Assembly: GCA_016867315.1 (NCBI GenBank)
Contig: VGJV01000003.1
Span: 27,429-91,428, forward strand
Source of the DNA: Candidatus Liptonbacteria bacterium
GTDB lineage: Bacteria; Patescibacteriota; Minisyncoccia; UBA6257; 2-01-FULL-56-20
Length of the DNA stretch: 64,000 nucleotides
Direction: 5' to 3'
Shown: positions 4,993 through 53,494 of the stretch, in pieces
How the letters are laid out: each line of letters begins with the position of its first letter
How positions within the stretch are numbered: position 1 is the first letter of the stretch
Program-made: the position numbers and the translations under genes
Notes under the pieces: model-generated
What the model was told of the DNA's origin: nothing
Database searches by the model: none
The model's input: only the letters and a program-made list of their open reading frames with translations

Positions 4993-5733
4993 ATGTACCA
5001 AATCCCAGAATTAAATAAATTTCCAAAGCTTCTCCATAATATTTCTCATAAAGAAGAGGGGAATATGTCCTTCCGATGGGGAGGACAGGTTCTCTCGAAT
5101 CGAGAGAGGTTTTTAATAAAAGTAGGAGTGGGGCTTGAGATGTGTGTGGGTGCGAGTCTTGAACATGAAACAAAAGTAACGCGCGTCGAGACGAAACACC
5201 GGGGAATGGGCATGCGAGACCCGGAGACTGCAGTGCCCGGAGACGCGTTTCTTACGAATGCTCCGGGGACATTTCTATTTCTTCTCACGGGGGATTGCTT
5301 GCCTATTGCTGTGTATGACCCCATGGAGAAGGTGGTGGGGTTAGTACATGCGAGCCGGAAAAATTCTCCTCTCGGCCTCATGAGAAAAGTAATCGATCGT
5401 ATGGAAGAATGGTACGGCTCAAAAGCTAAAAATATAGTAGTGAGTATCGGGCCGGGAGTACGAAAAGAAAGTTATATATTCCCCCCAGTTATGAAAGAAG
5501 AACTTATGCCAATATGGAAGAAATTCCTTATAAAGATAGATGAGGAAAAATTTGCATTAGACGTAGTGGGCATGAATAGTGCAGAACTTAGAAATTCGGG
5601 AGTGCGGGAAGAAAATATCCACGTTGCTCCTCAGGACACCATCGCCGATCCGGCTTTTTTCTCCCATTATCGCAGCCGCCTCACGGGGGAAGCCGAGGGG
5701 AGAATGGCCACGGTTTTAGGAATTAAGTCTTGA
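4993..5733 (+). CDS. purine nucleoside phosphorylase/polyphenol oxidase YfiH/PgeF (DUF152) family
   Basis: Conserved LTGDCLPIAVYDP…GLVHASRKNS…SIGPG core of the YfiH family. The true start is probably downstream of the 4993 ATG. Confidence 0.65.
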   Translation: MYQIPELNKFPKLLHNISHKEEGNMSFRWGGQVLSNRERFLIKVGVGLEMCVGASLEHETKVTRVETKHRGMGMRDPETAVPGDAFLTNAPGTFLFLLTGDCLPIAVYDPMEKVVGLVHASRKNSPLGLMRKVIDRMEEWYGSKAKNIVVSIGPGVRKESYIFPPVMKEELMPIWKKFLIKIDEEKFALDVVGMNSAELRNSGVREENIHVAPQDTIADPAFFSHYRSRLTGEAEGRMATVLGIKS

Positions 5734-6011
5734 GCATGGCAAAACATTTAGAGATAAAAATATTTGGAAGAGTGCAAGGGGTATTTTTTAGAGAGGAATC
5801 CAAGAAGATGGCAAAAGAGCTGGATATCGTGGGATTTGCGCGAAACGAGGCAGAGGGAGCAGTATATATGGAAGTGGAAGGCGAAGAGAAAAATCTATCT
5901 GCTTTTCTCGATTGGTGCAAGAAAGGTCCCGCGGGGGCTTCCGTGACCAATATAGAGGTAAGAGAAGGAGCGGCGCAGGGATTTAAAAGTTTTACGATTC
6001 AATGGCGATAA
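5730..6011 (+). CDS. acyP: acylphosphatase
   Basis: 93 aa with the acylphosphatase signature (IFGRVQGVFFRE…GFARN). Confidence 0.8.
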   Translation: MSMAKHLEIKIFGRVQGVFFREESKKMAKELDIVGFARNEAEGAVYMEVEGEEKNLSAFLDWCKKGPAGASVTNIEVREGAAQGFKSFTIQWR

Positions 6012-6631
6012 AAATTATAGATATCTCGAGACCTATATCAGCGAAGGAGCCTATATATCCCGGGAATATGCCGGTGGAACTGATGGCGCTTAAAAAGTTT
6101 TCTAAAGACAAATCTAATCTTTCTGGCATCAAGATGGGATTGCATAGCGGGAGTCATATAGATGCGCCGCTCCATTATATAAAAATGGGAACATCAGTAG
6201 ACAAATTGCCGCTCGACGAGACAATAGGCTGGTGCCGCGTAGTGGATGTGAGCAAGCTCAAATCCGAAATCGGAGAAAAGGAGATAAAAAAGTTCCGGCC
6301 TCAGAGCGGAGAAATCCTGCTTTTCAAAACCCGAAACTCTCGACTGAAAGATAAACGTTTTAATCCTTCGTTTATCCATATAAATCAATCCGGCGCAGAA
6401 GTATTAGCGAAAGCCCGTGTGAAGGCGGTGGGAGTAGACGGGCCATCAGTACGTAAATTCCGATTGAAACCAGACACGGTTCACCCGCTCCTTTTGAAGC
6501 GAGGAATTTTGATCTACGAAGGCCTGGATTTAAGCAAGGCTAAGCCAGGGCGATACTTTTTTGTAGGCGCGCCCTTAAAAATCACCGGCGCCGAAGCCTC
6601 GCCTGTTCGCGCGATCTTAATCAAGAGTTGA
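6002..6631 (+). CDS. cyclase family protein (kynurenine formamidase-like)
   Basis: HSGSHIDAPLHY motif typical of the putative cyclase/arylformamidase family. Confidence 0.65.
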   Translation: MAIKIIDISRPISAKEPIYPGNMPVELMALKKFSKDKSNLSGIKMGLHSGSHIDAPLHYIKMGTSVDKLPLDETIGWCRVVDVSKLKSEIGEKEIKKFRPQSGEILLFKTRNSRLKDKRFNPSFIHINQSGAEVLAKARVKAVGVDGPSVRKFRLKPDTVHPLLLKRGILIYEGLDLSKAKPGRYFFVGAPLKITGAEASPVRAILIKS

Positions 6632-6668
6632 CGCTACGTGCTACTCGCTACATGCTACTTGCTATCCC

Positions 6669-9095
6669 ATGAACGCAATTTATCAGGAAAAAAACCCGAC
6701 GATTCTCGTGCTATTCGGAGCGACGGGAGATCTCACTCGGGAAAAGATAATCCCCGCACTCTTTCGGTTGCATCGAAAAAAACTCTTACCATCGCTGTTT
6801 CAGGTGGTGGGATTTTCACGCCGGGAACTTTCGCCGGAAGTGTTCAAAGAGAAGGTGAGGGAGGTAGTGACAAAGCTTCCCGAAGGAAAAACGCCTCTCG
6901 CGGATTCTTTCGTCTCTCTGTTCACCTACGTTCCGGGGTATTTCGAAAAACGGAGCGGCTATAAAAAGCTCGCTGAGTTTTTAGGATTCCGCGATAACGA
7001 ATGGAGAGTGTGTTCCAATAAACTTTTCTACTTCGCGGTGCCGCCGGAATATTACAAAAATATCATGCAGCATCTCGCCGCGTCGAGACTCACGGAGCCT
7101 TGCAGTCCGGAAGAAGGGTGGACCCGCGTGGTCGTGGAAAAGCCCTTCGGAAAAAATGCGAAAACTGCCGAGGAACTTGATGCGCTCCTGGGGAAGCTTT
7201 TCCGGGAAGAGCAGATTTATCGAATCGATCACTACTTAGGAAAAGAAACCGTCCAGAATATTCTTGCGTTTAGGTTCTCGAATTCCTTCTTTGAGCCTGC
7301 CTGGAATAATCAAACGATCGAATCCATTCGCGTGAGCATCTTCGAATCGAAAGGAGTAGAAGAGCGAGGAGATTTTTATGACGGAGTGGGCGCGCTGCGA
7401 GATGTGGGGCAAAATCATTTACTTCAGCTCTTAGCTCTTTTTACGATGGAGAATCCCGGAATATTCAATGCGGATTCCATCCGCGGAAAGCGTGCGGCAC
7501 TTTTGAAGACCCTTCGCATTTTGACGCAAAAAGAAATAGAAGAAAAAACAGTACGAGGGCAGTATCAGGGCTATCTCAAAGAAGCAGGAGTGCGGCGGGG
7601 TTCCTCCACGGAAACCTATTTTCAAATCGAAGCCGAAGTCAACTCTCCGCGCTGGGCGGGAGTGCCCATATACCTCGAAGCGGGAAAAAAATTAAAGGAA
7701 TCCAAAGTAGAGGCAGTAGTAAAATTCCGCCACCCCGCCCCATGCCTGTGCCCCATCGACCGCAAAAAACATTTTCATAATATTCTCCGATATCAAATTC
7801 AGCCGGAAGAATGCATCACTTCTTCATTCCTAGTAAAAAAGCCAGGAGAAAAACTTGTGCTCGAAGAAAAAGATTTTGTGCTGGATTATGGAAGCGAGAA
7901 AGATCACGACTTGTTTTTAGATGCATACGAAAGGTTGCTTCTGGGAGTAGTCCGAGGAGACCAAACACTTTTTGTAAGCACCGAAGAAATTCTTACGAGC
8001 TGGAAATTCATAGATCCGATCATAGGGAGGTGGAAGCGGGGCGCTCCTGAAATAGTGAGTTACATGCCAAAGAGTGATCCGATGAAAATTATACCCGAGG
8101 CGGTGCCTCACGCATTTCATGATAAAAGGGAAATCTTTCTTGCGGGATTAGGAAAGATGGGGAGAAATATGGCGGTTCGCCTCAGGGAGCATGGATGGAA
8201 AGTAAAAGCATTCGATGTAAGTCCGGACGCAAGAAAAGAAATTGAGAAGGAGGGTATAAAAGCGACGAGCAATCTCGCGACAGTGAAGGCTCTCCATGCT
8301 CCGCGACTCATTTGGCTTATGGTGCCTTCGCGCGCAGCCTCGCCTTCTGAAAAAAACCCAATTGACGAAATTCTTTTCGGAAAAGGTGGTCTCGCTGAGC
8401 TTTTGGAAAAAGGGGACGTAATTATCGATGGAGGAAACTCACTCTATACGGAAACAATGAGACGAAGCCGAATACTGGCTCGTTCCGGAATTACATTGAT
8501 AGATGCAGGGGTCTCCGGGGGTCCCAGTGGAGCCCGGCATGGAGCGGCGCTCATGGTGGGAGGAAAAACCGAAGTCATAAAAGAATTAGAGCCTCTATTT
8601 GGGGTGCTCGCGGTGCCGGGGGGGTACGCGCACGTGGGAAAATCCGGGGCAGGGCATTTCGTGAAAATGGTGCATAACGGAATCGAGTACGGCATGATGC
8701 AGGCCATAGCCGAAGGTTTTTCCATTTTGAAGAAGACGGATTTAAAATTAGATGTGAAACAAATTGCCGCCCTTTATAATCGCGGCACGGTAATCGAATC
8801 TAAGTTGCTCGATTGGCTCTATAAAGCGCTCGAAGCCTACGGGGAAGAATTAGAAGCCGTGAGTGGGACAGTTGGGCACCTTGGGGAAGGGGAATGGACG
8901 GCCAAAACAGCCAAACAATTGAATATTCCGGTCCCTATAATCGAAGGCGCGTTTCATTTTCGGGTGCGATCCGCAAAAAAACCTAGCTACACGGGGAAAA
9001 TTTTGAGCGCTTTAAGAAATCAATTCGGAGGGCATGCGATAGCAAAGGGCAAAGAGCAAATAACAAAGAGAAAGAGTAAGATACAAAGAAAATAA
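6669..9095 (+). CDS. zwf: fusion protein: glucose-6-phosphate 1-dehydrogenase (N-terminal, about 470 aa) plus short-form 6-phosphogluconate dehydrogenase (C-terminal, about 300 aa)
   Basis: N-terminal half: ILVLFGATGDLTREKIIPALF, RIDHYLGKE and the G6PD C-domain. From about aa 500: IFLAGLGKMGRNMAVRL Rossmann motif, then GGNSLYTETMRRSRILARSGITLIDAGVSGGPSGARHGAALMVGG (Gnd/YqeC-like). It is one uninterrupted 808-aa frame. Confidence 0.85.
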   Translation: MNAIYQEKNPTILVLFGATGDLTREKIIPALFRLHRKKLLPSLFQVVGFSRRELSPEVFKEKVREVVTKLPEGKTPLADSFVSLFTYVPGYFEKRSGYKKLAEFLGFRDNEWRVCSNKLFYFAVPPEYYKNIMQHLAASRLTEPCSPEEGWTRVVVEKPFGKNAKTAEELDALLGKLFREEQIYRIDHYLGKETVQNILAFRFSNSFFEPAWNNQTIESIRVSIFESKGVEERGDFYDGVGALRDVGQNHLLQLLALFTMENPGIFNADSIRGKRAALLKTLRILTQKEIEEKTVRGQYQGYLKEAGVRRGSSTETYFQIEAEVNSPRWAGVPIYLEAGKKLKESKVEAVVKFRHPAPCLCPIDRKKHFHNILRYQIQPEECITSSFLVKKPGEKLVLEEKDFVLDYGSEKDHDLFLDAYERLLLGVVRGDQTLFVSTEEILTSWKFIDPIIGRWKRGAPEIVSYMPKSDPMKIIPEAVPHAFHDKREIFLAGLGKMGRNMAVRLREHGWKVKAFDVSPDARKEIEKEGIKATSNLATVKALHAPRLIWLMVPSRAASPSEKNPIDEILFGKGGLAELLEKGDVIIDGGNSLYTETMRRSRILARSGITLIDAGVSGGPSGARHGAALMVGGKTEVIKELEPLFGVLAVPGGYAHVGKSGAGHFVKMVHNGIEYGMMQAIAEGFSILKKTDLKLDVKQIAALYNRGTVIESKLLDWLYKALEAYGEELEAVSGTVGHLGEGEWTAKTAKQLNIPVPIIEGAFHFRVRSAKKPSYTGKILSALRNQFGGHAIAKGKEQITKRKSKIQRK

Positions 9096-9123
9096 TCCTA
9101 AATTCATCGAATAACTTATTCAA

Positions 9124-10101
9124 TTGGCTATGAATATGTACAACGCAATAAAGACGTTCAATACCCAGTTTGGATTTGAACCCAAAATCGAGAACTTGAA
9201 TAATCTTCAGAGGCGAGAGAAATTTGTAGTGGCCGGCATGGGAGGTTCGCATCTCGCTGCGGATCTTTTCTCGATTATCAACCCCGAGCTTGATATTGAG
9301 ATTCATAAGGATTATGGCTTGCCCGCCCTTCCTGATCTGAAGAACAGGTTTCTCATTGCAAGTTCTTATTCTGGAAATACTGAAGAAACCGTGAGCGCAT
9401 TCCTTGAGGCTCGGAAACATAAGATTCCTGTAGCCGCAATTGCGGTGGGAGGAAAACTCATGGAATTAGCGAAAAAATTCAAAGTTCCTTACGTACAGCT
9501 TCCCGATTTGCAAATCCAACCCCGTTCGGCCCTGGGGGTGAGTATTATGGCCATGTTTGCATTGATGAATGACCGTCGTTTGCTTAAAGAAGCTTCACAC
9601 TTAAAATCGCGGCTTCGACCCGACAAAATCGAGGCAGTGGGGAAAGCGCTCGCATATAGAATCAAAGGAAAGGTTCCGGTAGTATATTCGTCTTCAGAGA
9701 ACGCTCCTATCGCGTACAACTGGAAAATAAAGTTGAACGAAACCGGCAAAATCCCGGCTTTTATGAATGTCCTTCCGGAGTTGAATCACAACGAAATGAA
9801 TGGTTTTGATGTGCATCCCTCTACCCGTCCGCTTTCTAGGGTATTTCATTTCCTTCTGCTCAAAGATAAAAATGACAATGAACATGTGCAAAAGCGCATG
9901 GAAGTACTCGCCTCCCTTTATGAAGCCCGTAAGTTGCCCGTCATGACCCTTGAGCTTAAAGGCAAGACGGTACTCGAAAAGATATTCTCCTCGCTCCTTC
10001 TTGCGGATTGGCTGGCATATCACACCGCGACACTTTATAAAGTGGATCCGGAGCAGGTCCCGCTCGTGGAAGAATTCAAAAAGTTGATAGCCAAGAGATA
10101 G
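9124..10101 (+). CDS. bifunctional phosphoglucose/phosphomannose isomerase (SIS-domain, archaeal-type PGI/PMI)
   Basis: GMGGSHLAADL and SSYSGNTEET signatures of the PGI/PMI family. Pathway context next to zwf-gnd. Confidence 0.7.
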   Translation: MAMNMYNAIKTFNTQFGFEPKIENLNNLQRREKFVVAGMGGSHLAADLFSIINPELDIEIHKDYGLPALPDLKNRFLIASSYSGNTEETVSAFLEARKHKIPVAAIAVGGKLMELAKKFKVPYVQLPDLQIQPRSALGVSIMAMFALMNDRRLLKEASHLKSRLRPDKIEAVGKALAYRIKGKVPVVYSSSENAPIAYNWKIKLNETGKIPAFMNVLPELNHNEMNGFDVHPSTRPLSRVFHFLLLKDKNDNEHVQKRMEVLASLYEARKLPVMTLELKGKTVLEKIFSSLLLADWLAYHTATLYKVDPEQVPLVEEFKKLIAKR

Positions 10102-10113
10102 ATTGTTGGTATA

Positions 10114-10941
10114 ATGGGAGAGATGAAAAAACTCTCCCGTTCGAAACTCGAGCTTTTTTTGGAATGTCCTCGGTGTTTTTGGCTAGATCAAGTAAAAGGC
10201 GTGAAGCGTCCTCCGCCTGCGCCTTATACGATAAACAGCGCCATCGATCATCTCTTAAAACAAGAATTTGATTCATACCGGGAGAAAGGTGAGCCTCACC
10301 CGATTATGACCAAGCACGGAGTGGAAGCCATTCCCTTTGCCCATCCTCAGCTCGACAAATGGCGACACAACTTCACGGGAGTCTCTCACCTGCATACACC
10401 GACTGGTATCCATATTTATGGAGCAGTGGATGATATTTGGGTAAACCCCAATGGGGAAGTCATGGTAGTGGACTACAAAGCAACGGGAGCAAATCAGCAT
10501 CAAATTTACGATTCCTACGGCCGACAAATGGAAGTATATCAGTGGCTCTTGCGCCGGAATGATCTGGAAGTTTCTCCTACGGGATACTTTGTATTCGCGA
10601 GGGTGAATAAAGGAAATGGTTTTGCTTCGCCCTCCGACTTGGCCGCCGAAGCTTCAGCGGAGAAGGCAGCGATGAAGCGAAACGGAAAAACAGGACTTTT
10701 ACCCTTCGACATTTTTGTTGAATCGCACACCGGGGATGATGCGTGGGTGGAAGAAACGATTATCGGAGCGGCAAAGCTTTTAGAGCAAACGAAAGCTCCT
10801 GTCGCCGCCGGGGATTGTGAATATTGTAAATATAGAGAAGCGGGACATATAGAAGACCTTCCGAAAGAATCAGCTGTTCCGATGGTTAAAAAGATTCTTA
10901 TTCCCGCTAAGAAATCTCGAGTTTCGAATCTGGGGATTTAG
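10114..10941 (+). CDS. PD-(D/E)XK nuclease, Cas4/RecB-like with a 4-Cys cluster
   Basis: N-terminal CPRCFWLD, a central V(V)DYKATG motif and C-terminal CEYCKY. No CRISPR or cas genes nearby. Confidence 0.5.
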   Translation: MGEMKKLSRSKLELFLECPRCFWLDQVKGVKRPPPAPYTINSAIDHLLKQEFDSYREKGEPHPIMTKHGVEAIPFAHPQLDKWRHNFTGVSHLHTPTGIHIYGAVDDIWVNPNGEVMVVDYKATGANQHQIYDSYGRQMEVYQWLLRRNDLEVSPTGYFVFARVNKGNGFASPSDLAAEASAEKAAMKRNGKTGLLPFDIFVESHTGDDAWVEETIIGAAKLLEQTKAPVAAGDCEYCKYREAGHIEDLPKESAVPMVKKILIPAKKSRVSNLGI

Positions 10942-40565: not shown

Positions 40566-42320
40566 ATGAAAAATGAAGTGAGAAATTGTCAGAATTGTAA
40601 GTCTGATTTCACGATCGAAACGGAAGACTTCAACTTTTATCAGAAAATGCAGGTTCCGCCGCCCACATGGTGCCCAGATTGTCGGCTGGAGCGACGATTG
40701 GCATGGCGGAACGAAAGGGTGCTTTTTAGAAGAACGGACAGCATAACCGGCAAAACACTGCTCGCAGGGTTCCCGCAAGATGTGCCGTTTCCTATCTACG
40801 AACGAAACTATTGGTGGTCAGACGAGTGGGATCCGTTGCAATACGGAAGAGATTTCGATCCCTCAAGACCCTTCCTCGAACAACTGAAAGAACTAATGCA
40901 CACGGTGCCCTGGCCGAGCCGCAGTGTGATGTTCGAGACAAATTCGGAATATACGGATCAAGCCGGACATCTCAAAAATTGCTATCTTTGCTTCAACGCC
41001 GATTACTGCGAGAATTGTCTATATCTGGTCCGAGCGAATACCACCAAAGACACGCTGGATTCGCTGCAAGTTCAAAACTCCGAGCTTTGCTACGATTCGG
41101 TGCTCATCAACAAAAGTTTCCGCATGTTTTATTCATTCGACTGCGATGGCTCGAGTGATATGCATTTCTCAAAGCAGTGCGTGGGCTGTAATCACTGCTT
41201 CGGCTGCGTAGGGCTCCGAAAGAAAAGTTATCACATCTGGAATCAGCCTTATTCGAAGGAGGAATACGAAAAGAAATTGAAAGAAATGAACTTGGGCTCC
41301 CGCGCCTCGATCGAGGCCCTCAAAGCCGAAGCGCGTCGCTTTTGGCTCAAGTTCCCGTGCAAATACTACCGCGGGATTCGAAATATAGATTCGAGCGGAG
41401 ATATGCTTATCGATACAAAGAATGCCAAACAGTGTTACTGGGTAACGAATGCAAAAGACGTGCGCTACTGCCAAGATTTATACATCCAATCTGAAGACTG
41501 TTATGACTACACAGTCTGGGCAAATCATGGTACGCGGATTTATGAATGTCTCACCTGCGGCGAGGAAGTGCAGAACCTGAAATTTTGCTTCGATTGTTGG
41601 CCTGCCTGCCGAGATCTCGAATATTCCGTAGGCTGCCATTCGACTTCGGATTGCTTCGGCTGTGTCGGTTTGAAGAAAAAGCAATATTGCATACTGAATA
41701 AACAATATTCCAAAGAAGAATACGAAAAAATTCGCGAGCAGATTATCGCGCAGATGAAAGAAATTCCTTATGTGAATGAGAAGGGAATCGAATATAGGTA
41801 CGGAGAATTCTTGCCGACTGAATTTTCTCCTTTTGCGTATAACGAGACAATGCTTCTCGATGCGTTCCCACTCACTAAGGAAGAGGCGATAAAGAAGGGA
41901 TATCGCTGGCGGGATCCCGATCGCAAAGAGTATCAAACGACCCTTAAAGCTGCGGAGCTGCCGGATGCTATCAATGAAACAAAAGAAGAGATTACAAAGG
42001 AAATCCTCGAATGTGCAAAGTGCAAAAAAGCCTATCGAATTGTGGCGCCTGAACTCGCATTTCATAAGCGGCTCGAAATCCCATTGTCTGATATATGCCA
42101 AGATTGCAGGCATGCGGAACGGTTCACATTATTGAATTCTCCTCGATATTTCTCCAGGGCTTGCATGTGCGCCGGAGAAGCAGATGCCACGGGAGTGTAT
42201 AAAAATACCGCGACGCACTCACATGCAGGGCAGTGTCCCAGCAAATTTGAAACCGCGTATACTCCCGACCGCCCCGAGATTATCTATTGCGAAGAGTGTT
42301 ATCAAAAAGAAACCACTTAA
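40566..42320 (+). CDS. Cys-rich paralog family member 1 (584 aa), unknown function
   Basis: N-terminal C-x2-C-x21-C-x2-C-R (NCQNCKSDF…FYQKMQVPPPTWCPDCRLERR) and the WDP…YGRDFDPSRPF block. Two internal modules end C.GC.GL(R/K)KK.Y.I.N.QYSKEEYEK, followed by GEFLP…SPFAYNET. The C-terminus has C..C…YRI…FH…IP.S.IC.DCRH and a terminal C.C…NTATHSH…CP..FET.YTPDRPEIIYCEECYQ. Confidence 0.8.
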   Translation: MKNEVRNCQNCKSDFTIETEDFNFYQKMQVPPPTWCPDCRLERRLAWRNERVLFRRTDSITGKTLLAGFPQDVPFPIYERNYWWSDEWDPLQYGRDFDPSRPFLEQLKELMHTVPWPSRSVMFETNSEYTDQAGHLKNCYLCFNADYCENCLYLVRANTTKDTLDSLQVQNSELCYDSVLINKSFRMFYSFDCDGSSDMHFSKQCVGCNHCFGCVGLRKKSYHIWNQPYSKEEYEKKLKEMNLGSRASIEALKAEARRFWLKFPCKYYRGIRNIDSSGDMLIDTKNAKQCYWVTNAKDVRYCQDLYIQSEDCYDYTVWANHGTRIYECLTCGEEVQNLKFCFDCWPACRDLEYSVGCHSTSDCFGCVGLKKKQYCILNKQYSKEEYEKIREQIIAQMKEIPYVNEKGIEYRYGEFLPTEFSPFAYNETMLLDAFPLTKEEAIKKGYRWRDPDRKEYQTTLKAAELPDAINETKEEITKEILECAKCKKAYRIVAPELAFHKRLEIPLSDICQDCRHAERFTLLNSPRYFSRACMCAGEADATGVYKNTATHSHAGQCPSKFETAYTPDRPEIIYCEECYQKETT

Positions 42321-42321
42321 A

Positions 42322-44034
42322 ATGCAGAATATGAACTGCAAACACTGCAAAAAAGATTTTGCAGTCACTGCAGATGATCTACGGTGGTATGAAAAATTCG
42401 GAGTATGTATCCCAAAGCTTTGCCCACAGTGTCGGGCGCAGCGGCGGTTAGTCTTTCGAAACGAACGAAGCTTCTACAAGCGTCCCTGCGATAAGTGCAA
42501 AAAGGACGTGGTTTCGATGTATAGCCCCAACAAACCGTATACCGTGTACTGCCACGATTGTTGGTTTAGGGATGACTGGAATCCGCTTGATTTCGGTAGA
42601 GATTATGACTCCTCGCGGCCCTTTTTCGACCAGTTCAAAGAATTATGGGAAAAGGTGCCAAAAATTTCGCTTATCCATGTCCGGAGCGTGAATTCGGAAT
42701 ATCTGAATATCTGCGCCGATAATAAAAACTGCTACATGATTGTGGAATCTTCTAATAATGAAGATTCTATTCATTGCTATTGGATTCAAAAAACAAGGAA
42801 TTGTGTGGACACTTCTTTTTCCCATGAGTGCGAGCGCTGTTACGAATCGGACGACATTTACAATTGTTATCAAACACACTACAGCAAGGGGTGCCACGAC
42901 TGCCGGGATAGTTATTTTCTGTTCGATTGCAGAAATTGTTCTAATTGCATTGGCTGCGTGAATCTGCGCAACAAACAATATTGCGTGTTTAATGAACAAC
43001 TCTCCAAAGAGGAGTATCAAAAAATTTTGAAGGAAGCTCGACTCGACACTGCATCGGGCATAGAAAAATTGCGTGGCCAATTTGAAGAGTTTAAGAAAAA
43101 ACAGCCTCGCAAATTTGCGGAAGCGGTAAATGTAGTGAATTGCTCGGGGAATTATTTGAAGGATGCGAAAAACTGCAGCGACTGCTTCCATACATATGAA
43201 GCCGAAGACTGTAAATATGCGGTACACGCCTGGCGTGATGCGAAAGACTGCGTGGATACGGACACCACGGGCAGAGGAGTGCAGATGGTCTATAACTCGC
43301 ATAACACTGGCATCAATGCCTCGAATTGTATTTGCTGTGCGCTCTGCTGGGGAAACAACTTTCTTACTTACTGCGCGTATTGTTATGACTCACAAGACTG
43401 CTTTGCCTCCACCGGCCTCCGTAAAAAACAGCACTGCATTTTGAATAAACAATATTCCAAAGAAGACTACGAAAAACTCAAAACTCAAATTATTGCAGAT
43501 ATGAAACGCGAGGGCATATATGGGGAATATTTCCCGCCCTCCTTAAGCACGTTTGGATACAATGAGGCCTGTGTGCTCGAGCAAATACCGCTTATGAAAG
43601 AAGAAGCGCTCTCACAAGGTTTCAAATGGGAAGACCACCCTCGTGGCGCGTTCGGGAAAGAAACGGCAGGTTGGGAAAAAATTCCGGATTCTATCCTCGA
43701 GCTTCAATGCGATGCCTCCAAAGAAATTTTTGCATGTACTGCGTGTAGAAAAAATTATCGAATTATCTCTGACGAGCTTACGTTCTATAAATCGTTGGAA
43801 ATTCCCTCGCCGCGATTGTGTCCCGATTGCCGGCACGTGCGTCGCTTTACCGCGCGGGGTCCCAATCATGTAAAGGAAAAAAAATGTAGCTGCGAAGGTA
43901 TTAGAGCAGGGGGTTATCTGAATACTGCCAACACTTTCACGGAGAACATCCATGTCCTAACCGCTTTAAAACTGCCCATTATGAGGATTCCAATGCAATC
44001 CTTTACTGCGAAGAGTGTTATAACTCCGAAGTAG
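42322..44034 (+). CDS. Cys-rich paralog family member 2 (about 570 aa)
   Basis: Same architecture as member 1. The N-terminus has two complete CxxC…CxxC ribbons (NCKHCKKDF…CPQCR, CDKCKKDV…CHDC). The ORF track starts at 42184, overlapping member 1; the start is more likely at 42322 (MQNMNCKHC…). Confidence 0.8.
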   Translation: MQNMNCKHCKKDFAVTADDLRWYEKFGVCIPKLCPQCRAQRRLVFRNERSFYKRPCDKCKKDVVSMYSPNKPYTVYCHDCWFRDDWNPLDFGRDYDSSRPFFDQFKELWEKVPKISLIHVRSVNSEYLNICADNKNCYMIVESSNNEDSIHCYWIQKTRNCVDTSFSHECERCYESDDIYNCYQTHYSKGCHDCRDSYFLFDCRNCSNCIGCVNLRNKQYCVFNEQLSKEEYQKILKEARLDTASGIEKLRGQFEEFKKKQPRKFAEAVNVVNCSGNYLKDAKNCSDCFHTYEAEDCKYAVHAWRDAKDCVDTDTTGRGVQMVYNSHNTGINASNCICCALCWGNNFLTYCAYCYDSQDCFASTGLRKKQHCILNKQYSKEDYEKLKTQIIADMKREGIYGEYFPPSLSTFGYNEACVLEQIPLMKEEALSQGFKWEDHPRGAFGKETAGWEKIPDSILELQCDASKEIFACTACRKNYRIISDELTFYKSLEIPSPRLCPDCRHVRRFTARGPNHVKEKKCSCEGIRAGGYLNTANTFTENIHVLTALKLPIMRIPMQSFTAKSVITPK

Positions 44035-44118
44035 CATAGCCCTTCCCAAAACGTAAAACCTGTGGTAATGTAAAGACAGAAACCGTTCCTTTTAAAGGCC
44101 GAAAAACCATACTATCAA

Positions 44119-44427
44119 ATGGTTATTATCTATACTACGTGTAAGGATACGGCCGAAGCGACAAAGATCGGCAAGGTGATTTTGGACAGCAAATTGGCCT
44201 CTTGCGTGAACATCTGGCCCATCCAGAGCATGTTTCATTGGGAGGGAAAACTCGCTAATCAGCTCGAAGCCGGAATGCTGGTAAAAACCGTAGAACATCA
44301 CACTGCCGAGATCGAAGAATTGATCACGAAAAACCATTCCTATTCCGTACCTTTTATTGGCGTGATGCAGGTGCATCGCCATAATAGAGCGTACCGTGAA
44401 TGGATGAGTTCGGTGGTCAAACCATAA
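44119..44427 (+). CDS. cutA: divalent-cation tolerance protein CutA
   Basis: MVIIYTTCKDTAEA…SCVNIWPIQSMFHWEGK matches the CutA1 family. Confidence 0.8.
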   Translation: MVIIYTTCKDTAEATKIGKVILDSKLASCVNIWPIQSMFHWEGKLANQLEAGMLVKTVEHHTAEIEELITKNHSYSVPFIGVMQVHRHNRAYREWMSSVVKP

Positions 44428-45920
44428 TTTTTCAAATGAAGCTCGAGCTTATAAAAAAGCTCCCCACCGAAGGAGCAATAGTGTTTGTGATAAAAGAAGG
44501 AGTCTCTCTAAAGACACATCCATTTTTGAAGTTTCTCGGAGAGGAGGACAAAAAATATATCGAAACCGTCACGAATGCATCAGGTGCAAGTGGAATTTCT
44601 AATAAATTCTTGATTCTTCCCTCGGGAAGAAAAACTTTAATTATAAGTGTTCCTGCAAAAGATAAATTTACCGGCCGCAAAGCGATTCTCTCCGCCCGGC
44701 GGGTGATCGTGGCCGCTCGAAGTGAAAAACTGGCACAGATTGTCGTATTGCTCGAAGACTTTCAAGCCCGAACATCCCCGCAAGAAACCGCGACGATGCT
44801 TGGTACTCAACTGGAGATCGCCAATTTTGAATTTGTAGCATATAAAACTGCCCCTAAGGAAGGATGGAATTTTGTAGAAGAAGTCGGAGTATTCTCAAAG
44901 TACAGCCTAGAATCCTTACGCAAAGCGCTCGAAGCGGGAAAGGTAGTTGGAGAAGAAGTAAATGCGGCGCGAGTCCTCTCAAATACTCCTGGGGGAGATA
45001 TGACTCCTGCTGGCCTCGCTGAAGCAGCGCTCCAAGCCGGTAAAAAATCCGGGTTTAAAGTGACAATTTTGGATGAAAAAGAAATTACCAAACTCGGCAT
45101 GGGCGGCGTCTTGGGAGTCTCTAAAGGTTCCGTGGAAAAACCCCGCTTCATCGTCATAGAATACCTTCGCGGCAAAAAATCCGAAAAGCCGGTAGTGATA
45201 GTGGGAAAAGGAGTTACTTTCGATACTGGAGGATTGAACCTAAAACCCACGCAAGCGATCTATGAAATGCATATGGATATGTCCGGTGGAGCCGCCACAA
45301 TCCATATTCTCGGAGCACTCGCCCGGCTCAATGTAAAGAAAAACGTGATTGGGTTGGTACCTGCAGTAGAAAACATGCCCTCCGGTTCAAGTTTCCGCCC
45401 CGGAGACCTCTTAAAATCCATGTCGGGCAAAACCATTGAGGTAACGAATACTGATGCGGAAGGCCGAGTGATCCTCGCGGATGCCTTGGAATATGCCAAG
45501 CGTTACAATCCTCGTTTAGTAGTAGACATAGCTACGCTCACGGGCGCTGCGCTCGTAGCGCTGGGTCAACGAGCTTCTGCCATATTTTCGACCAGTGCTC
45601 CGGTAGAGCGTTCTCTTCGCGCAATTGGAGAAGAAACTGGAGATTTCGTCTGGCCGCTGCCCTTGTGGGAAGAATACGAAGAAGATATTAAAGGAATGTT
45701 CGGAGATTTTGCGAACTCCGGCAAGAGCCGCTGGGGAGGCGCGATTGAAGGCGCCGTATTCCTTCGCCAATTTATTCGCGACAAAGAAGGGAATGATGCA
45801 TATCCGTGGGTGCACCTCGATATTGCTCCCCGTATGACCTCGGTAGACGGAGAATTTCTGGCCAAGGGCGCCGCGGCTCCTTCCGTCGCCCTCCTCACGC
45901 AATTTTTGCGTGAATACTAA
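44400..45920 (+). CDS. pepA: leucyl aminopeptidase (M17 family)
   Basis: M17 signature NTDAEGRVILADAL, plus VGKGVTFDTGG and MDMSGGAA. The likely start is the M near 44430. Confidence 0.85.
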   Translation: MDEFGGQTIIFQMKLELIKKLPTEGAIVFVIKEGVSLKTHPFLKFLGEEDKKYIETVTNASGASGISNKFLILPSGRKTLIISVPAKDKFTGRKAILSARRVIVAARSEKLAQIVVLLEDFQARTSPQETATMLGTQLEIANFEFVAYKTAPKEGWNFVEEVGVFSKYSLESLRKALEAGKVVGEEVNAARVLSNTPGGDMTPAGLAEAALQAGKKSGFKVTILDEKEITKLGMGGVLGVSKGSVEKPRFIVIEYLRGKKSEKPVVIVGKGVTFDTGGLNLKPTQAIYEMHMDMSGGAATIHILGALARLNVKKNVIGLVPAVENMPSGSSFRPGDLLKSMSGKTIEVTNTDAEGRVILADALEYAKRYNPRLVVDIATLTGAALVALGQRASAIFSTSAPVERSLRAIGEETGDFVWPLPLWEEYEEDIKGMFGDFANSGKSRWGGAIEGAVFLRQFIRDKEGNDAYPWVHLDIAPRMTSVDGEFLAKGAAAPSVALLTQFLREY

Positions 45921-45941
45921 AATTAGGCTATTCTTAAAGGA

Positions 45942-47609
45942 ATGAGCTCGACTCGTTCCTGCAGGCAATGCAGGAACGCATTCTCTGTGGATGCTTCAGA
46001 CCTCTCATTTTATGAAAAAATGGGAGTTCCCGTGCCGGCACTCTGCCCCGAGTGCCGATTTCGACGTCGTGCCGGGTTTCGAAATGAACGCACGCTCTAC
46101 AAGCAAAACTGCAAACTTTGCGCCAAGTCGGTAATCACCATGTACAACCCAAAATCACCGCTTGTTGTGTACTGTAATGACTGCTGGGCTTCAGATAAAT
46201 GGGATCCGAGCGCATATGCGATGGAGTATGATCCTTCCCGCCCTTTCTTCGATCAGTTAAAAGAACTCTCTCAAAAAGTTCCTAAATCCGGAACGTATTC
46301 GAGTGCATGGGCAGGTCCGAATGTAAGAAGTGAATACACTAACTTCGCGGGGAGTAATAAAGACTGTTATCTTTGCTTTAATTCAGGCCCGGAAAATGAA
46401 AATTGCGCCTATTCCAGAGGCATCATGCGTTCGCGGGATACATTCGATACCTACTACGGTTATGAAACCGAAAGGGGATATGAGGGAATAAATATGCAAA
46501 AAAGCTCAGGTGTTGCCTGGGGACAAAATATCCTCGAATGTCTCGATTCCTGGTTTCTTTTGAACTGTGCGAGCGTCCAAAATTGCTTTGGATGTGTGAA
46601 TCTGCGTCATAAATCGAATGCCTTCCTAAATGAGCCTCTTGAAAAAGAAGAGTGGAAACGAAAAATTTTAGAAATTACCGGTAGCTATCAAAGAATTGAA
46701 GAATTTAAAAAACAATTTCAGGAACATGCACTCAAATTTCCGCGGCGAGAAAATAATAATTTGAAATCAGTTGATTGCACGGGGGATTACATATTCGAAT
46801 CCAAAAACTGTCATGACTCATTTGAGGTGGGTAATGGAGAAAATTTGAAATATGTGTTCTCTGTAAAGTTCACCAAAGACAGTTATGACTTAATTGGACA
46901 CGGGCGGAATTCTGAACTGCTGCTTGAGGGAGTGGGAGCCGGAGCAAGTCAGCGCATCATAGCCGGTTGGTGGATAGAAAATGCCCATGATGTGGAATAT
47001 TCTTTTGCGACGCGCGCGAGCGAATATTGTTTCGGCTGCGACGGAATAAAAGGAGGGAAGTATCGGATATTAAATAAGCAGTATTCAGAGGAAGAATATA
47101 AGAAACTTCGCGCGCATATTATAGAAGAATTGAAAAACATCGGAGAATATGGGCTCTTTTTTCCGCCCTCGCTCTCGTTTTTCGCATATAACGAAACCAT
47201 CGGACAGGACAATCTGCCGCTCTCCAAAGAAGAAGCTATCCGACAAGGCTTCCGCTGGGAGGAAAATCTTCCCGCCACGAAGGGTCAGGAAACACTAAAA
47301 GCGGAACAACTCCCGGATCACATTAAGGATGTGCAGGATTCGATTTTGAGCGAAATTCTCGCTTGTATTTCCTGCGGTCGGAATTATCGGCTTATCAAGC
47401 CGGAGCTAGAAGCATATCGACGAGCACTAATTCCCATTCCAAGAAAGTGCTTCAATTGTCGGCACCTAGATAGACTGACTCGCCGGGGCCCGTTTAAATT
47501 ATTCGACCGCACCTGCGCAAAGTGTAATAAAGCAATCCGAACCAACTACGCTCCAGAACGACCCGAAATTGTGTATTGCGAGACTTGTTACCAAAATGAA
47601 GTTATATAG
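45942..47609 (+). CDS. Cys-rich paralog family member 3 (555 aa)
   Basis: SCRQCRNAFSVDASDLSFYEKMGVPVPALCPECRFRRR, a second ribbon CKLCAKSV…CNDC, the KWDPSAY..EYDPSRPFFDQLKEL block, CFGCVNLRHK, ILNKQYSEEEYKK, FFPPSLSFFAYNETI and C-terminal CISCGRNYRL…CFNCRH…IVYCETCYQNE. Confidence 0.8.
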   Translation: MSSTRSCRQCRNAFSVDASDLSFYEKMGVPVPALCPECRFRRRAGFRNERTLYKQNCKLCAKSVITMYNPKSPLVVYCNDCWASDKWDPSAYAMEYDPSRPFFDQLKELSQKVPKSGTYSSAWAGPNVRSEYTNFAGSNKDCYLCFNSGPENENCAYSRGIMRSRDTFDTYYGYETERGYEGINMQKSSGVAWGQNILECLDSWFLLNCASVQNCFGCVNLRHKSNAFLNEPLEKEEWKRKILEITGSYQRIEEFKKQFQEHALKFPRRENNNLKSVDCTGDYIFESKNCHDSFEVGNGENLKYVFSVKFTKDSYDLIGHGRNSELLLEGVGAGASQRIIAGWWIENAHDVEYSFATRASEYCFGCDGIKGGKYRILNKQYSEEEYKKLRAHIIEELKNIGEYGLFFPPSLSFFAYNETIGQDNLPLSKEEAIRQGFRWEENLPATKGQETLKAEQLPDHIKDVQDSILSEILACISCGRNYRLIKPELEAYRRALIPIPRKCFNCRHLDRLTRRGPFKLFDRTCAKCNKAIRTNYAPERPEIVYCETCYQNEVI

Positions 47610-47622
47610 AGACCGAATAAGT

Positions 47623-47657
47623 CGAAGTCCCGCCATAGCTTTAGCGAAGGAGGATGA
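47623..47657 (+). promoter_or_regulatory. conserved 35-nt intergenic element, copy A (cgaagtcccgccAtagctttagcgaaggaggatga)
   Basis: 34 of 35 positions identical to 53318-53352. It lies downstream of paralog member 3. Confidence 0.5.
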
Positions 47658-47681
47658 AAGCTGCTACCAGCAGGAAGTGGT

Positions 47682-49361: not shown

Positions 49362-49405
49362 AAGCAGTAACTCATCTACTAAGTATGCGATCGCTTAAGT
49401 AGTAG

Positions 49406-51160: not shown

Positions 51161-51221
51161 CGATTTATGAAATAAGATTTATGATTTAAGAATCATACAT
51201 AAATCCTGAATCGTAAAATCA

Positions 51222-51518
51222 ATGCATTTCCGAATCGACAACGTAGGCGATAATATGAACACCGTCATGCGCCGGATAGGGTACACGCCCATCCGGTGGA
51301 CGGAAAAAGGGGAGTTGAACTGCGTCCGGCCGCTTCAAGGGCAGGACTACCCTCGTTTTCATGCGTATGTAAAAGAAGAACGCTTCACGCTAATTTTCAG
51401 CCTTCACCTGGATCAAAAGCGTCCTTCCTACGGCAATGAAACCGCACACAGTGGCGAGTATGAAGGAGAAATAATTCAAGAAGAAGCACGGAGGATTCAA
51501 AAGATCTTGAGCTTCTAG
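51222..51518 (+). CDS. hypothetical protein (98 aa) embedded in the paralog array
   Basis: ORF only. It sits between members 5 and 6 and ends 3 nt before member 6 starts. Confidence 0.35.
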   Translation: MHFRIDNVGDNMNTVMRRIGYTPIRWTEKGELNCVRPLQGQDYPRFHAYVKEERFTLIFSLHLDQKRPSYGNETAHSGEYEGEIIQEEARRIQKILSF

Positions 51519-51521
51519 AAA

Positions 51522-53309: not shown

Positions 53310-53317
53310 CAAGCATG

Positions 53318-53352
53318 CGAAGTCCCGCCGTAGCTTTAGCGAAGGAGGATGA
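53318..53352 (+). promoter_or_regulatory. conserved 35-nt intergenic element, copy B (cgaagtcccgccGtagctttagcgaaggaggatga)
   Basis: It lies downstream of paralog member 6 and upstream of ATPase copy 2. Confidence 0.5.
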
Positions 53353-53494
53353 TGCCTGTTATAAAGCCGAATTTCTATAGATGAATAATTTTTTCTGGCG
53401 TCTTAGGAAATATAAATATCTTCTGCGAATCCTCTGGCAACAGGTAATGTTCAGACTAAAGATAGTTATTCGGAAACTATTTAAATAGGCGTCT

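What the first reader, a model, noticed from the sequence alone, without database searches (positions are those of the whole stretch)
6669..9095. Single-polypeptide fusion of glucose-6-phosphate dehydrogenase and short-form 6-phosphogluconate dehydrogenase, with no lactonase in between
An 808-aa uninterrupted frame has a full G6PD (GATGDLTREK…, RIDHYLGKE) fused to a Gnd/YqeC-like 6PGDH of about 300 aa (GLGKMGRNMA…, GGNSLYTETMRR…DAGVSGGPSGA). The well-known fusions of oxidative-PPP enzymes join G6PD with 6-phosphogluconolactonase. A G6PD-6PGDH fusion that skips the lactonase step is unusual, and no pgl gene is seen in this window. The next gene is a PGI/PMI isomerase, so the fusion heads a compact sugar-phosphate module.
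Basis: partly seen in the sequence, partly recalled or inferred. Interest (0 to 1): 0.55.

Follow-up and report, generated by a model that had tools for sequence, protein, structure and literature searches.

The report
Bacterial fused G6PD–6PGDH pentose-phosphate enzyme

Summary
The 808-aa ORF at 6669-9095 (+) is real. It is a full glucose-6-phosphate dehydrogenase joined by a ~20-residue flexible linker to a full short-chain 6-phosphogluconate dehydrogenase. Both halves exceed curated family cut-offs and keep every catalytic motif. It is not an artefact: four independent assemblies carry the gene with zero base differences, and >=120 diverged fused homologues (51-73% identity) exist in Patescibacteria. 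Unfused relatives have a zwf-gnd-pgl operon. The fused linker ends in the old gnd N-terminus without its Met, so the fusion arose by loss of the stop codon. The literature I could search describes this domain combination only in the diatom Phaeodactylum, and databases name the bacterial proteins simply 'G6PD'. Verdict: a new (bacterial, independent) member of a known kind, of moderate interest. The more novel lead is the lactonase step. pgl lies within 4 kb of 15/20 unfused operons but 1/29 fused genes. A KynB-like PF04199 metal hydrolase (6002-6631 here) recurs next to zwf/gnd in at least six arrangements, never together with pgl and sometimes in pgl's slot, including in a non-Patescibacteria genome. 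It is a candidate non-orthologous 6-phosphogluconolactonase, but this is untested.

The parts
6002..6631 (+). PF04199 'cyclase'-family binuclear-metal hydrolase (KynB/arylformamidase-like, 209 aa). It is recurrently linked to zwf/gnd and is a candidate replacement 6-phosphogluconolactonase (hypothesis).
   Evidence: It matches Pfam PF04199 at 2.2e-22. It scores 139 bits on TIGR03035 arylformamidase, below the 223 cut-off. Its closest solved structures are 1R61, 8HMO and KynB 4CO9/4CZ1. H48, H52, D54, H58, H161 and E173 are invariant in 16 zwf/gnd-linked homologues.
6633..6665 (+). Five tandem heptads (GCTACNN) that fill the 37-nt spacer between the hydrolase stop and the fusion ATG. Their role is unknown.
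   Evidence: The sequence was read directly. The pattern occurs only here in the 64 kb window, with 0 matches in 100 shuffles.
6669..9095 (+). The complete fused gene, Zwf-Gnd, 808 aa.
6708..8075 (+). G6PD half (residues 14-469), carrying GATGDL, EKPFG, RIDHYLGK and the GQNH catalytic His.
   Evidence: TIGR00871 scores above its cut-off. The motifs are invariant in 33 fused proteins. Foldseek gives TM 0.86-0.90 to human and L. mesenteroides G6PD. R51 in GFSRR is the Arg that is compatible with NADP+.
8076..8132 (+). Interdomain linker (residues 470-488), derived from the old zwf tail plus the intergenic spacer. It ends in ..KREI, the former gnd N-terminus.
   Evidence: Linker length is 15-29 aa and its sequence is variable across 32 fused clusters, while unfused relatives start gnd with MKK[EQ]IG. 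The AF2 model has pLDDT <50 at residues 477-484.
8133..9047 (+). Short-chain 6PGDH half (residues 489-793), carrying GLGKMG, GVSGGP and KMVHNGIEYG (K666, H669, N670, E673).
   Evidence: TIGR00872 and NF007161 score above their cut-offs. The residues are invariant in alignment A2. Its closest solved structures are the short-chain tetrameric 6PGDHs 8IHE, 10GW/6XEQ, 6VPB and 4E21.
8199..8210 (+). End of beta2 of the 6PGDH Rossmann fold, F511-D512-V513-S514. Asp here replaces the NADP-type N-R-[ST] motif, which predicts a preference for NAD+.
   Evidence: The fused family splits into 'Dxx' and 'NR[ST]' forms. 8IHE, named NAD(+)-dependent by its depositors, aligns with Asp at this position. The prediction is an inference and has not been assayed.
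9015..9035 (+). C-terminal RX2FGXH motif (R783-N-Q-F-G-G-H789), which in short-chain 6PGDH tetramers completes the active site of a neighbouring subunit.
   Evidence: The motif is invariant in alignment A2. Its role is described in PMC12871650. In the fusion it remains at the free C-terminus.
9124..10101 (+). Bifunctional phosphoglucose/phosphomannose isomerase, which supplies G6P from F6P.
   Evidence: TIGR02128 scores 228.7 bits against a cut-off of 213.9, and PF10432 matches at 9.5e-41. A PGI/PMI gene lies next to the fusion in 9 of 33 fused clusters, on either side.

Best explanation
[quoted passage not shown] The N-terminal half oxidises glucose-6-phosphate to 6-phosphoglucono-delta-lactone. 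After the lactone is hydrolysed, the C-terminal half oxidatively decarboxylates 6-phosphogluconate to ribulose-5-phosphate. The fusion arose when the stop codon between adjacent zwf and gnd genes of an ancestral Patescibacteria zwf-gnd(-pgl) operon was lost, so the zwf tail and the intergenic spacer became a flexible 15-29-residue linker. The zwf-then-gnd order leaves free the 6PGDH C-terminal RX2FGXH tail, which must reach into a neighbouring subunit. This is probably why only this gene order is found fused. The expected assembly is a homo-oligomer, most simply a tetramer, held together by the native G6PD and 6PGDH interfaces. The fusion guarantees 1:1 stoichiometry, co-expression and proximity of the two reducing-equivalent-producing steps. 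Motifs predict that the G6PD half can use NADP+ and that this window's 6PGDH half prefers NAD+. The lactone is hydrolysed in trans, either by the adjacent PF04199 hydrolase (see the novel case), by a pgl elsewhere in the genome, or spontaneously. With the downstream PGI/PMI the cluster converts F6P to Ru5P. Shown here: the domain identities, intact active sites, conservation, origin by stop loss, and the neighbourhood statistics. Inferred: catalytic activity, oligomeric state, cofactor use and any kinetic benefit.
For: The domain identities score above curated cut-offs, and the catalytic and substrate-binding residues of both halves are invariant in 33 fused proteins of 51-74% identity. At least 120 fused clusters at 90% identity carry all four Pfam domains, and about 25 representatives of 50%-identity clusters span the junction. 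The DNA is identical in four independent assemblies. Unfused relatives in Moraniibacteriota, Saccharibacteria and about 30 metagenomic clusters have zwf then gnd with gaps of -23 to +157 nt. Fused linkers end in [KR][KR]EIG, which corresponds to the MKK[EQ]IG start of unfused gnd. Non-Patescibacteria bacteria have the opposite order (short gnd, then zwf), and none of about 45 such loci is fused. The AF2 model shows two confident domains and a low-confidence linker, and the G6PD fold is confirmed. The 6PGDH half is closest to the short-chain tetrameric enzymes, whose RX2FGXH tail works in trans (PMC12871650). The genes from 4993 to 10941 form a co-directional array with overlaps or spacers of at most 37 nt, and promoter or terminator matches do not exceed chance.
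Against: No biochemical data exist for any bacterial member. The oligomeric state is not modelled. The cofactor assignment rests on one motif position and on depositor naming of 8IHE. My NJ tree places fused and unfused genes interleaved, so a single origin is not established and repeated fusion or fission cannot be excluded (no support values). A kinetic advantage of fusing steps 1 and 3 is not obvious if step 2 happens off the enzyme.
Confidence: 0.9

Rival explanations
1. The ORF is an artefactual read-through, in which a sequencing or assembly indel removed the stop codon between two separate genes.
For: Unfused zwf-gnd pairs separated by only a few bases do exist in related bacteria (L011 has a gap of 12 nt and L022 a gap of 24 nt), so a single error could in principle mimic a fusion.
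Against: There are zero nucleotide differences over 2,427 nt in four independent assemblies from different sequencing runs. At least 120 diverged homologues have the same architecture. No Met or start codon sits at the 6PGDH N-terminus; the sequence is DKREIF where unfused genes have MKKEIG.
Confidence: 0.01
2. The lactone step is not enzyme-catalysed by anything in the cluster. Either the organism relies on spontaneous hydrolysis of 6-phosphogluconolactone or it carries an ordinary pgl elsewhere in the genome, and the upstream PF04199 hydrolase is just a syntenic neighbour with an unrelated (formamidase-like) role.
For: Of 33 fused clusters, 22 have neither pgl nor the hydrolase within 4 kb. 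One 59%-identical hydrolase homologue has no zwf or gnd within 5 kb (L178). The hydrolase is a clear sequence relative of kynurenine formamidases. The window clade shares wider synteny (Sua5, Cu-oxidase_4, acylphosphatase), which could carry the gene along passively. Only 64 kb of the genome is visible. Stover et al. (PMC3148214, Introduction) note that the delta-lactone can hydrolyse spontaneously.
Against: The hydrolase keeps its linkage through at least six different gene orders, in both fused and unfused loci. In L151 and L181 it occupies exactly pgl's slot, and it never co-occurs with pgl (0 both, 19 pgl only, 12 hydrolase only; p=0.013). A preprint reports that intracellular spontaneous hydrolysis does not compensate for loss of Pgl in E. 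coli (10.1101/2023.11.29.569206). A complete tryptophan-to-kynurenine pathway is not expected in these reduced genomes (my own knowledge, not tested).
Confidence: 0.5
3. One half of the fusion is a catalytically dead or regulatory domain (a pseudoenzyme), so the protein is monofunctional.
For: Nothing specific supports this. Databases name the protein only 'glucose-6-phosphate dehydrogenase', and TIGR00872 is passed by only about 20 bits.
Against: All known catalytic and substrate-binding residues of both halves are invariant across 33 proteins that are only 51-74% identical overall. The RX2FGXH tail is intact. Both halves fold confidently in the model.
Confidence: 0.03
4. The polypeptide is not the functional unit. 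It is either cleaved after translation (as suggested for some diatom fusion proteins), or the 6PGDH is also made separately from an internal start (in-frame Met466 and Met472 lie in the linker).
For: Kroth et al. mention possible post-translational cleavage of some diatom fusion proteins (PMC2173943). The window has two in-frame ATG codons in the linker region.
Against: The linker Met codons are not conserved in the homologues. No conserved cleavage motif is present, since linkers vary in sequence and length. No promoter-like signal stands out.
Confidence: 0.05

Closest known systems
G6PDH/6PGDH fusion protein of the diatom Phaeodactylum tricornutum (protein 54663; Kroth et al. 2008, PMC2173943; Stover et al. 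2011, PMC3148214)
   Same: It has the same two enzymes in the same order (G6PD at the N-terminus, 6PGDH at the C-terminus), a short spacer, and no lactonase domain. It also arose from adjacent genes that lost the stop codon (a 39-nt spacer in frame).
   Different: It is eukaryotic, restricted to one species or its close relatives, and its gene model has been disputed. Stover et al. found no other such fusion in nr in 2011. The bacterial family is large, clearly of independent origin (from a Patescibacteria zwf-gnd operon), and uses the short-chain tetramer-type 6PGDH. I could not retrieve the diatom sequence, so I could not compare its 6PGDH type.
G6PD::6PGL fusions (Plasmodium GluPho, Giardia and Trichomonas G6PD::6PGL, metazoan H6PD)
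   Same: These are also bifunctional oxidative-PPP polypeptides built on a G6PD core. They were likewise overlooked in annotation because the G6PD half dominates.
   Different: They join consecutive steps 1 and 2, whereas this protein joins steps 1 and 3 and leaves the lactone hydrolysis to another agent.
Unfused zwf-gnd-pgl operons of other Patescibacteria (e.g. L011 Moraniibacteriota, L094, L145) and gnd-zwf-pgl operons of other bacteria
   Same: The enzymes are orthologous (45-60% identity to the halves), the genes are tightly packed, and the pathway is the same.
   Different: Stop and start codons are retained, and pgl is usually adjacent (15 of 20 loci against 1 of 29 for fused genes). 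Outside Patescibacteria the gene order is reversed, and a fusion in that order would tether the essential 6PGDH C-terminal tail.
Short-chain tetrameric 6PGDHs (Gluconobacter oxydans 6XEQ/10GW, Gluconacetobacter diazotrophicus, M. tuberculosis Gnd2 8IHE, Geobacter 4E21)
   Same: The 6PGDH half has the same length class (~300 aa), a single helical hemi-domain, the C-terminal RX2FGXH motif, and Asp at the end of beta2 as in the enzyme named NAD+-dependent.
   Different: Those enzymes are stand-alone proteins, whereas here the N-terminus is tethered to a G6PD.
Kynurenine formamidase KynB / arylformamidase (PF04199; 4CO9, 4COB, 1R61), compared with the upstream hydrolase
   Same: The upstream hydrolase has the same fold family, the HxGxHxDxPxH motif, and the full set of binuclear-metal ligands.
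   Different: It scores 114-157 bits against a 223-bit equivalog cut-off. Its genomic context is zwf/gnd/PGI rather than tryptophan catabolism, and no lactonase activity has been reported for this family in the literature I could search.

Membership tests
Glucose-6-phosphate dehydrogenase (Zwf; TIGR00871 / PF00479+PF02781) | The whole-domain profile score must exceed the curated equivalog cut-off. | tested here: met
   TIGR00871 scores 477.5 bits against a 400.6 cut-off, covering residues 10-465 and profile positions 2-462 of 486.
Glucose-6-phosphate dehydrogenase (Zwf; TIGR00871 / PF00479+PF02781) | The protein must carry the dinucleotide-binding GxxGDLx motif, the EKPxG motif, the RIDHYLGK substrate motif and the catalytic His (the GQNH equivalent of L. 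mesenteroides His240). | tested here: met
   All of these motifs are present in the window protein and invariant in 33 fused homologues. The residue roles come from established knowledge of L. mesenteroides and human G6PD.
Glucose-6-phosphate dehydrogenase (Zwf; TIGR00871 / PF00479+PF02781) | The protein must have the G6PD fold, a Rossmann domain plus a beta+alpha domain. | tested here: met
   Foldseek on the AF2 model gives TM-scores of 0.86-0.90 (normalised by target) to 2BH9, 1DPG and related structures, with E about 1e-45.
Glucose-6-phosphate dehydrogenase (Zwf; TIGR00871 / PF00479+PF02781) | The protein must catalyse NAD(P)+-dependent oxidation of G6P. | not testable with these tools
   This requires an enzyme assay.
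Short-chain (tetrameric) 6-phosphogluconate dehydrogenase (TIGR00872 gnd_rel / NF007161) | The profile score must exceed the curated cut-off, and the domain must be ~300 aa with a single C-terminal hemi-domain. | tested here: met
   TIGR00872 scores 317.2 bits (cut-off 297.2) and NF007161 scores 333.3 (271) over residues 489-793. The long-form models fail, with TIGR00873 at 189.6 bits against 426.7.
Short-chain (tetrameric) 6-phosphogluconate dehydrogenase (TIGR00872 gnd_rel / NF007161) | The catalytic Lys and Glu with the His/Asn of KMVHNGIEYG, the GVSGG Ser loop and the C-terminal RX2FGXH motif must be present. | tested here: met
   K666, H669, N670, E673, S616-P619, R783 and F786-H789 are invariant in alignment A2. 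The role of the motif is taken from PMC12871650.
Short-chain (tetrameric) 6-phosphogluconate dehydrogenase (TIGR00872 gnd_rel / NF007161) | The enzyme must assemble as a homotetramer. | not tested
   Only a monomer was modelled, so this needs SEC-MALS or cryo-EM.
Short-chain (tetrameric) 6-phosphogluconate dehydrogenase (TIGR00872 gnd_rel / NF007161) | Cofactor preference should be NAD+ rather than NADP+. | tested here: inconclusive
   The window has F-D512-V-S where NADP-type enzymes have N-R-[ST], and 8IHE (named NAD+-dependent) aligns with Asp at this position. This is a motif-based inference only.
G6PD-6PGDH bifunctional fusion (diatom type) | Both complete enzymes must lie in one uninterrupted reading frame, with G6PD at the N-terminus. 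| tested here: met
G6PD-6PGDH bifunctional fusion (diatom type) | Membership would require common descent with the diatom fusion. | tested here: not met
   The bacterial fusion nests among unfused Patescibacteria zwf-gnd operons and derives from them, so it has the same architecture by convergence. The diatom sequence itself was not compared.
6-phosphogluconolactonase, DevB/Pgl type (PF01182, TIGR01198) | A member of the family must be present in the fusion or in the window. | tested here: not met
   The fusion contains no PF01182 domain. The best window hit to a Pgl profile built from 71 operon-linked Pgl sequences has E=0.67.
Kynurenine formamidase / arylformamidase (TIGR03035), tested on the upstream hydrolase 6002-6631 | The score must reach the equivalog cut-off. 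| tested here: not met
   The window protein scores 139.3 bits against 223.05, and zwf/gnd-linked homologues score 113-157 bits.
PF04199 'cyclase' metal-hydrolase superfamily, tested on the upstream hydrolase | The HxGxHxDxPxH motif and the binuclear-metal ligands must be present. | tested here: met
   H48, H52, D54, H58, H161 and E173 are invariant in 16 homologues, and all 16 match PF04199.
Bifunctional PGI/PMI (TIGR02128), tested on the downstream gene 9124-10101 | The score must exceed the equivalog cut-off. | tested here: met
   The gene scores 228.7 bits against a 213.9 cut-off.

The most novel reading that the evidence does not exclude
The KynB-like PF04199 binuclear-metal hydrolase encoded immediately upstream (6002-6631) is a previously unrecognised, non-orthologous 6-phosphogluconolactonase. 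In many Patescibacteria, and in at least one non-Patescibacteria genome (L181: gnd-zwf-hydrolase), it has displaced the DevB-type Pgl. On this reading the cluster hydrolase / Zwf-Gnd fusion / PGI-PMI is a complete F6P-to-Ru5P module. A related member lying two genes from a glucose-dehydrogenase-type gene on an archaeal-looking contig (L180) hints at a wider role as a sugar lactonase.
Probability: 0.35. Interest if true: 0.7.

Novelty: new member of a known kind. Interest (0 to 1): 0.42.

Why it matters
**Annotation.** Hundreds of Patescibacteria proteins are named only 'glucose-6-phosphate dehydrogenase'. Pathway reconstructions that look for a separate gnd will therefore wrongly score the oxidative pentose-phosphate branch as incomplete in these reduced genomes.

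**Evolution.** The family offers a clean natural series: an unfused zwf-gnd-pgl operon, then stop loss, then the fused gene. There is also a structural rationale for why only one gene order can fuse, namely the free 6PGDH C-terminal tail.

**Biochemistry.** A protein joining steps 1 and 3 raises the question of how step 2 is handled. A recent preprint argues that Pgl is not dispensable in E. coli. The recurrent, pgl-exclusive hydrolase neighbour gives a directly testable candidate for a new lactonase family.

**Applications.** A compact NAD(P)H-generating two-step enzyme could be of use in cell-free cofactor regeneration.

Tried and rejected
**Pfam scan of all window ORFs.** I ran a Pfam scan of all 55 window ORFs through an alignment id. 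The output lists only 25 of 76 families, so it could not exclude a lactonase. I replaced it with direct scans and a home-built Pgl profile.

**GTDB genome scan with the full-length alignment.** It was still useful for showing the reversed, unfused gene order elsewhere, but it cannot be used to count fused genomes or to search whole genomes for pgl.

**Junction-spanning query against the 50%-identity representatives.** The built-in thresholds are too coarse: only 1 hit reached E<=1e-30. I counted about 25 junction-spanning representatives by eye, and many of them are fragments.

**Promoter and terminator scan.** Matches did not exceed chance, so it gives no information on operon boundaries.

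**NJ tree of the G6PD domain.** It is poorly resolved and has no support values, so I do not claim a number of fusion events.

**Close relatives with pgl and hydrolase in the same slot.** I looked for close relatives in which pgl and the hydrolase occupy the same slot. The nearest pgl-bearing relative of any hydrolase-bearing locus is only 49-66% identical, so in-situ replacement is suggested by position only.

**Synteny as the sole explanation for the hydrolase.** I considered that the hydrolase adjacency is pure synteny within the window's clade. I rejected this as the sole explanation because of the varied gene orders and the L181 locus, but I kept it as a rival.

**Literature searches.** Searches for a described bacterial G6PD-6PGDH fusion or for PF04199 lactonase activity found nothing. 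The library lacks most subscription-journal papers, so absence there is not proof.
Full report
**Observation.** The window contains an uninterrupted 808-codon ORF at 6669-9095 on the + strand. ATG 6669 is the first possible start after the upstream in-frame stop, as read. Pfam finds G6PD_N (residues 14-197), G6PD_C (199-469), NAD_binding_2 (489-648) and 6PGD (662-773). The curated NCBIfam equivalogs are both passed: zwf TIGR00871 scores 477.5 bits (cut-off 400.6) and the short 'gnd_rel' TIGR00872 scores 317.2 (297.2). The long-form gnd models fail. The downstream gene, 9124-10101, is a bifunctional PGI/PMI scoring above its cut-off.

**Not an artefact.** The upstream 209-aa protein has a 100% match named as coming from a Candidatus Liptonbacteria MAG (lineage Patescibacteria / Parcubacteria group). 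Contigs carrying it come from JGI 3300020193 and from Logan assemblies of SRR7052762, SRR16108667 and SRR16108668, and all call the same 808-aa four-domain gene. The 2,427 nt are identical to the window, with no internal stop. Independently, a protein search returned at least 120 clusters of 766-843 aa carrying all four domains at 51-73% identity. Where a source names the organism, these come from Patescibacteria MAGs (Parcubacteria, Wildermuthbacteria, Andersenbacteria, Sungbacteria, Roizmanbacteria), and they are named only 'glucose-6-phosphate dehydrogenase'. A junction-spanning query found about 25 representatives of 50%-identity clusters that cross the junction.

**Anatomy.** In an alignment of 33 fused proteins, all the hallmark residues are invariant:
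- **G6PD half:** GATGDL, EKPFG, RIDHYLGK and the GQNH histidine.
- **6PGDH half:** GLGKMG, GVSGGP, KMVHNGIEYG, and the C-terminal R-x-x-F-G-x-H motif.

The segment between the halves is variable in length and sequence. An AlphaFold2 model (mean pLDDT 84) shows two confident domains joined by a low-confidence linker at residues 477-484, and the G6PD fold is confirmed against the PDB (TM 0.86-0.90). The 6PGDH half is closest to the solved short-chain enzymes 8IHE, 10GW/6XEQ, 6VPB and 4E21. According to PMC12871650, such enzymes are tetramers whose RX2FGXH tail completes the active site of a neighbouring subunit.

**Origin.** Loci from GTDB genomes and metagenomes were analysed with profiles of each half.
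- **Outside Patescibacteria:** the short gnd lies upstream of zwf, and the pair is never fused in about 45 loci.
- **Patescibacteria-type loci:** the order is zwf then gnd. In about 32 non-redundant clusters the genes are separate, with gaps of -23 to +157 nt and gnd starting MKK[EQ]IGxIGLGKMG. In about 33 clusters they are fused, with a 15-29-residue linker that ends [KR][KR]EIGxIGLGKMG.

This is the signature of stop-codon loss with read-through of the spacer. My inference is that only the zwf-then-gnd order leaves the essential 6PGDH C-terminal tail free, which would explain why the reversed operons of other bacteria are not fused. A rough NJ tree interleaves fused and unfused genes, so I do not claim a single fusion event.

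**Cofactors (inference).** The G6PD half keeps the Arg of GFSRR, which accommodates the 2'-phosphate of NADP+. At the end of beta2 of the 6PGDH half the family splits into 'NR[ST]', the classical NADP signature, and 'Dxx'. The window has F-D-V-S, like 8IHE, which its depositors call NAD+-dependent. The protein may therefore yield one NADPH and one NADH per G6P, but this is untested.

**The lactonase question.** No PF01182 Pgl is detectable in the window. Across loci de-duplicated at 95% identity:
- pgl lies within 4 kb of 15 of 20 unfused zwf-gnd operons, typically as zwf-gnd-pgl, but of only 1 of 29 fused genes (Fisher p=1.4e-7, not corrected for phylogeny).
- PGI/PMI is adjacent in 9 of 33 fused clusters and 0 of 32 unfused.
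- A PF04199 'cyclase'-family gene, the gene that ends 37 nt upstream of the fusion in this window, lies within 4 kb in 12 clusters, plus L014 and L031.
- That gene never co-occurs with pgl (0 both, 19 pgl only, 12 hydrolase only, 34 neither; p=0.013).

The PF04199 gene appears in several different gene orders:
- immediately upstream of the fusion;
- 1.1-1.6 kb upstream;
- immediately downstream;
- after PGI/PMI;
- after pgi in a Saccharibacteria zwf-gnd-pgi-hydrolase operon (L022);
- directly after gnd in unfused L151/L153, the slot that pgl occupies elsewhere.

My family assignments were validated. All 16 hydrolases match PF04199 and all 17 lactonases match PF01182. The hydrolases keep all the KynB-type metal ligands and resemble 1R61 and KynB, but they score far below the arylformamidase equivalog cut-off.

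A reverse test started from four hydrolase homologues:
- The 37%-identical protein lies in a gnd-zwf-hydrolase operon of a non-Patescibacteria-type genome (L181), with its start overlapping the zwf stop.
- One lies near the fusion, in the same population as L093.
- One lies two genes from a glucose-dehydrogenase-type gene on an archaeal-looking contig (L180).
- One has no zwf or gnd within 5 kb (L178).

Phegnon et al. (10.1101/2023.11.29.569206) report that spontaneous intracellular hydrolysis does not replace Pgl in E. coli. Together with that report, the pattern makes the hydrolase a reasonable candidate for a non-orthologous 6-phosphogluconolactonase. I put this at about 0.35. Most fused loci have neither gene nearby, only local context could be examined, and no biochemistry exists.

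**Comparison with what is known.** The literature I could search describes G6PD::6PGL fusions (Plasmodium, Giardia, Trichomonas, H6PD). It describes a single G6PDH/6PGDH fusion, in Phaeodactylum tricornutum (PMC2173943), which Stover et al. found to be unique in nr in 2011 (PMC3148214). I found no description of the bacterial family. The bacterial fusion has the same architecture as the diatom protein but an independent origin, so I file it as a new member of a known kind and not as a new kind.

**Verdict.** Interest in the fusion itself is moderate. The most valuable outputs are three:
- an annotation correction for Patescibacteria metabolism;
- the fused/unfused natural series, with a structural rationale for the gene order;
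- the testable hypothesis that a KynB-like hydrolase supplies the missing lactonase step.

Noticed in passing
window 6633-6665: Five tandem heptads, GCTACGT GCTACTC GCTACAT GCTACTT GCTATCC, occupy the whole spacer between the hydrolase stop and the fusion ATG. The pattern occurs nowhere else in the 64 kb window (0 matches in 100 shuffles). No obvious Shine-Dalgarno sequence precedes the ATG. This could be a regulatory or protein-binding element.
   Followed up: partly
window 6669-9095, residues C115, C145, C359, C361 (nt about 7011, 7101, 7743, 7749): A four-cysteine cluster, including the HPxPCLCP motif, is conserved in both fused and unfused Patescibacteria G6PDs but absent from eight outgroup G6PDs. 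It could be a metal site or a redox switch. Spatial proximity in the model was not checked.
   Followed up: partly
alignment A2 (window residues 511-514); loci L001, L008, L010 and others: Within the fused family the 6PGDH cofactor motif switches between Dxx (NAD-type, as in the window) and NR[ST] (NADP-type). This suggests repeated retuning of which reduced cofactor the second step yields.
   Followed up: no
L003 5170-13530; L181 6764-8284: In some relatives the fusion or the zwf operon is embedded among thiol-redox and peroxide-defence genes: glutaredoxin, AhpC/Redoxin, DsbD, a thioredoxin-reductase-like flavoprotein and DsbA. This is consistent with the pathway supplying reductant for oxidative-stress defence.
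   Followed up: no
L180 5001-6722: On a contig that carries archaeal-type ribosomal protein genes (S27e, S24e), a 44%-identical PF04199 hydrolase lies two genes upstream of an ADH_N + Glu_dehyd_C (glucose-dehydrogenase-type) gene, which encodes another enzyme that produces a sugar lactone.
   Followed up: no
L012 1-2427: A fused gene (45% identity to the window protein) sits on a contig of a MAG labelled 'uncultured Gammaproteobacteria'. This could be a binning error or a horizontal transfer, and it was not resolved.
   Followed up: no
window 40566-55477: This stretch holds a run of large co-directional ORFs (about 555-660 aa), most with no Pfam family and two with C-terminal treble-clef zinc fingers. 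The run ends in a VirD4/TrwB-type coupling-protein-like ATPase (53495-55477), followed by TrmD and ComEC (56075-57553). It may be a DNA-uptake or type-IV-like apparatus typical of Patescibacteria.
   Followed up: partly
window 4993-10941 and L005, L007, L178: A conserved gene order is shared by several Parcubacteria contigs: Sua5/YrdC, (FAD-linked oxidase), Cu-oxidase_4 (YfiH-like), acylphosphatase, PF04199 hydrolase, fusion, (PGI/PMI), PD-(D/E)XK nuclease, PEBP. In L178 the same upstream genes are present but the fusion is not within 5 kb.
   Followed up: partly
one search compared: The exact 808-aa protein is called on public contigs, yet it did not appear among the hits of the protein-database search, where the best hit was 73% identical. 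The exact upstream hydrolase did appear. This looks like a quirk of the search index and not of the biology.
   Followed up: no
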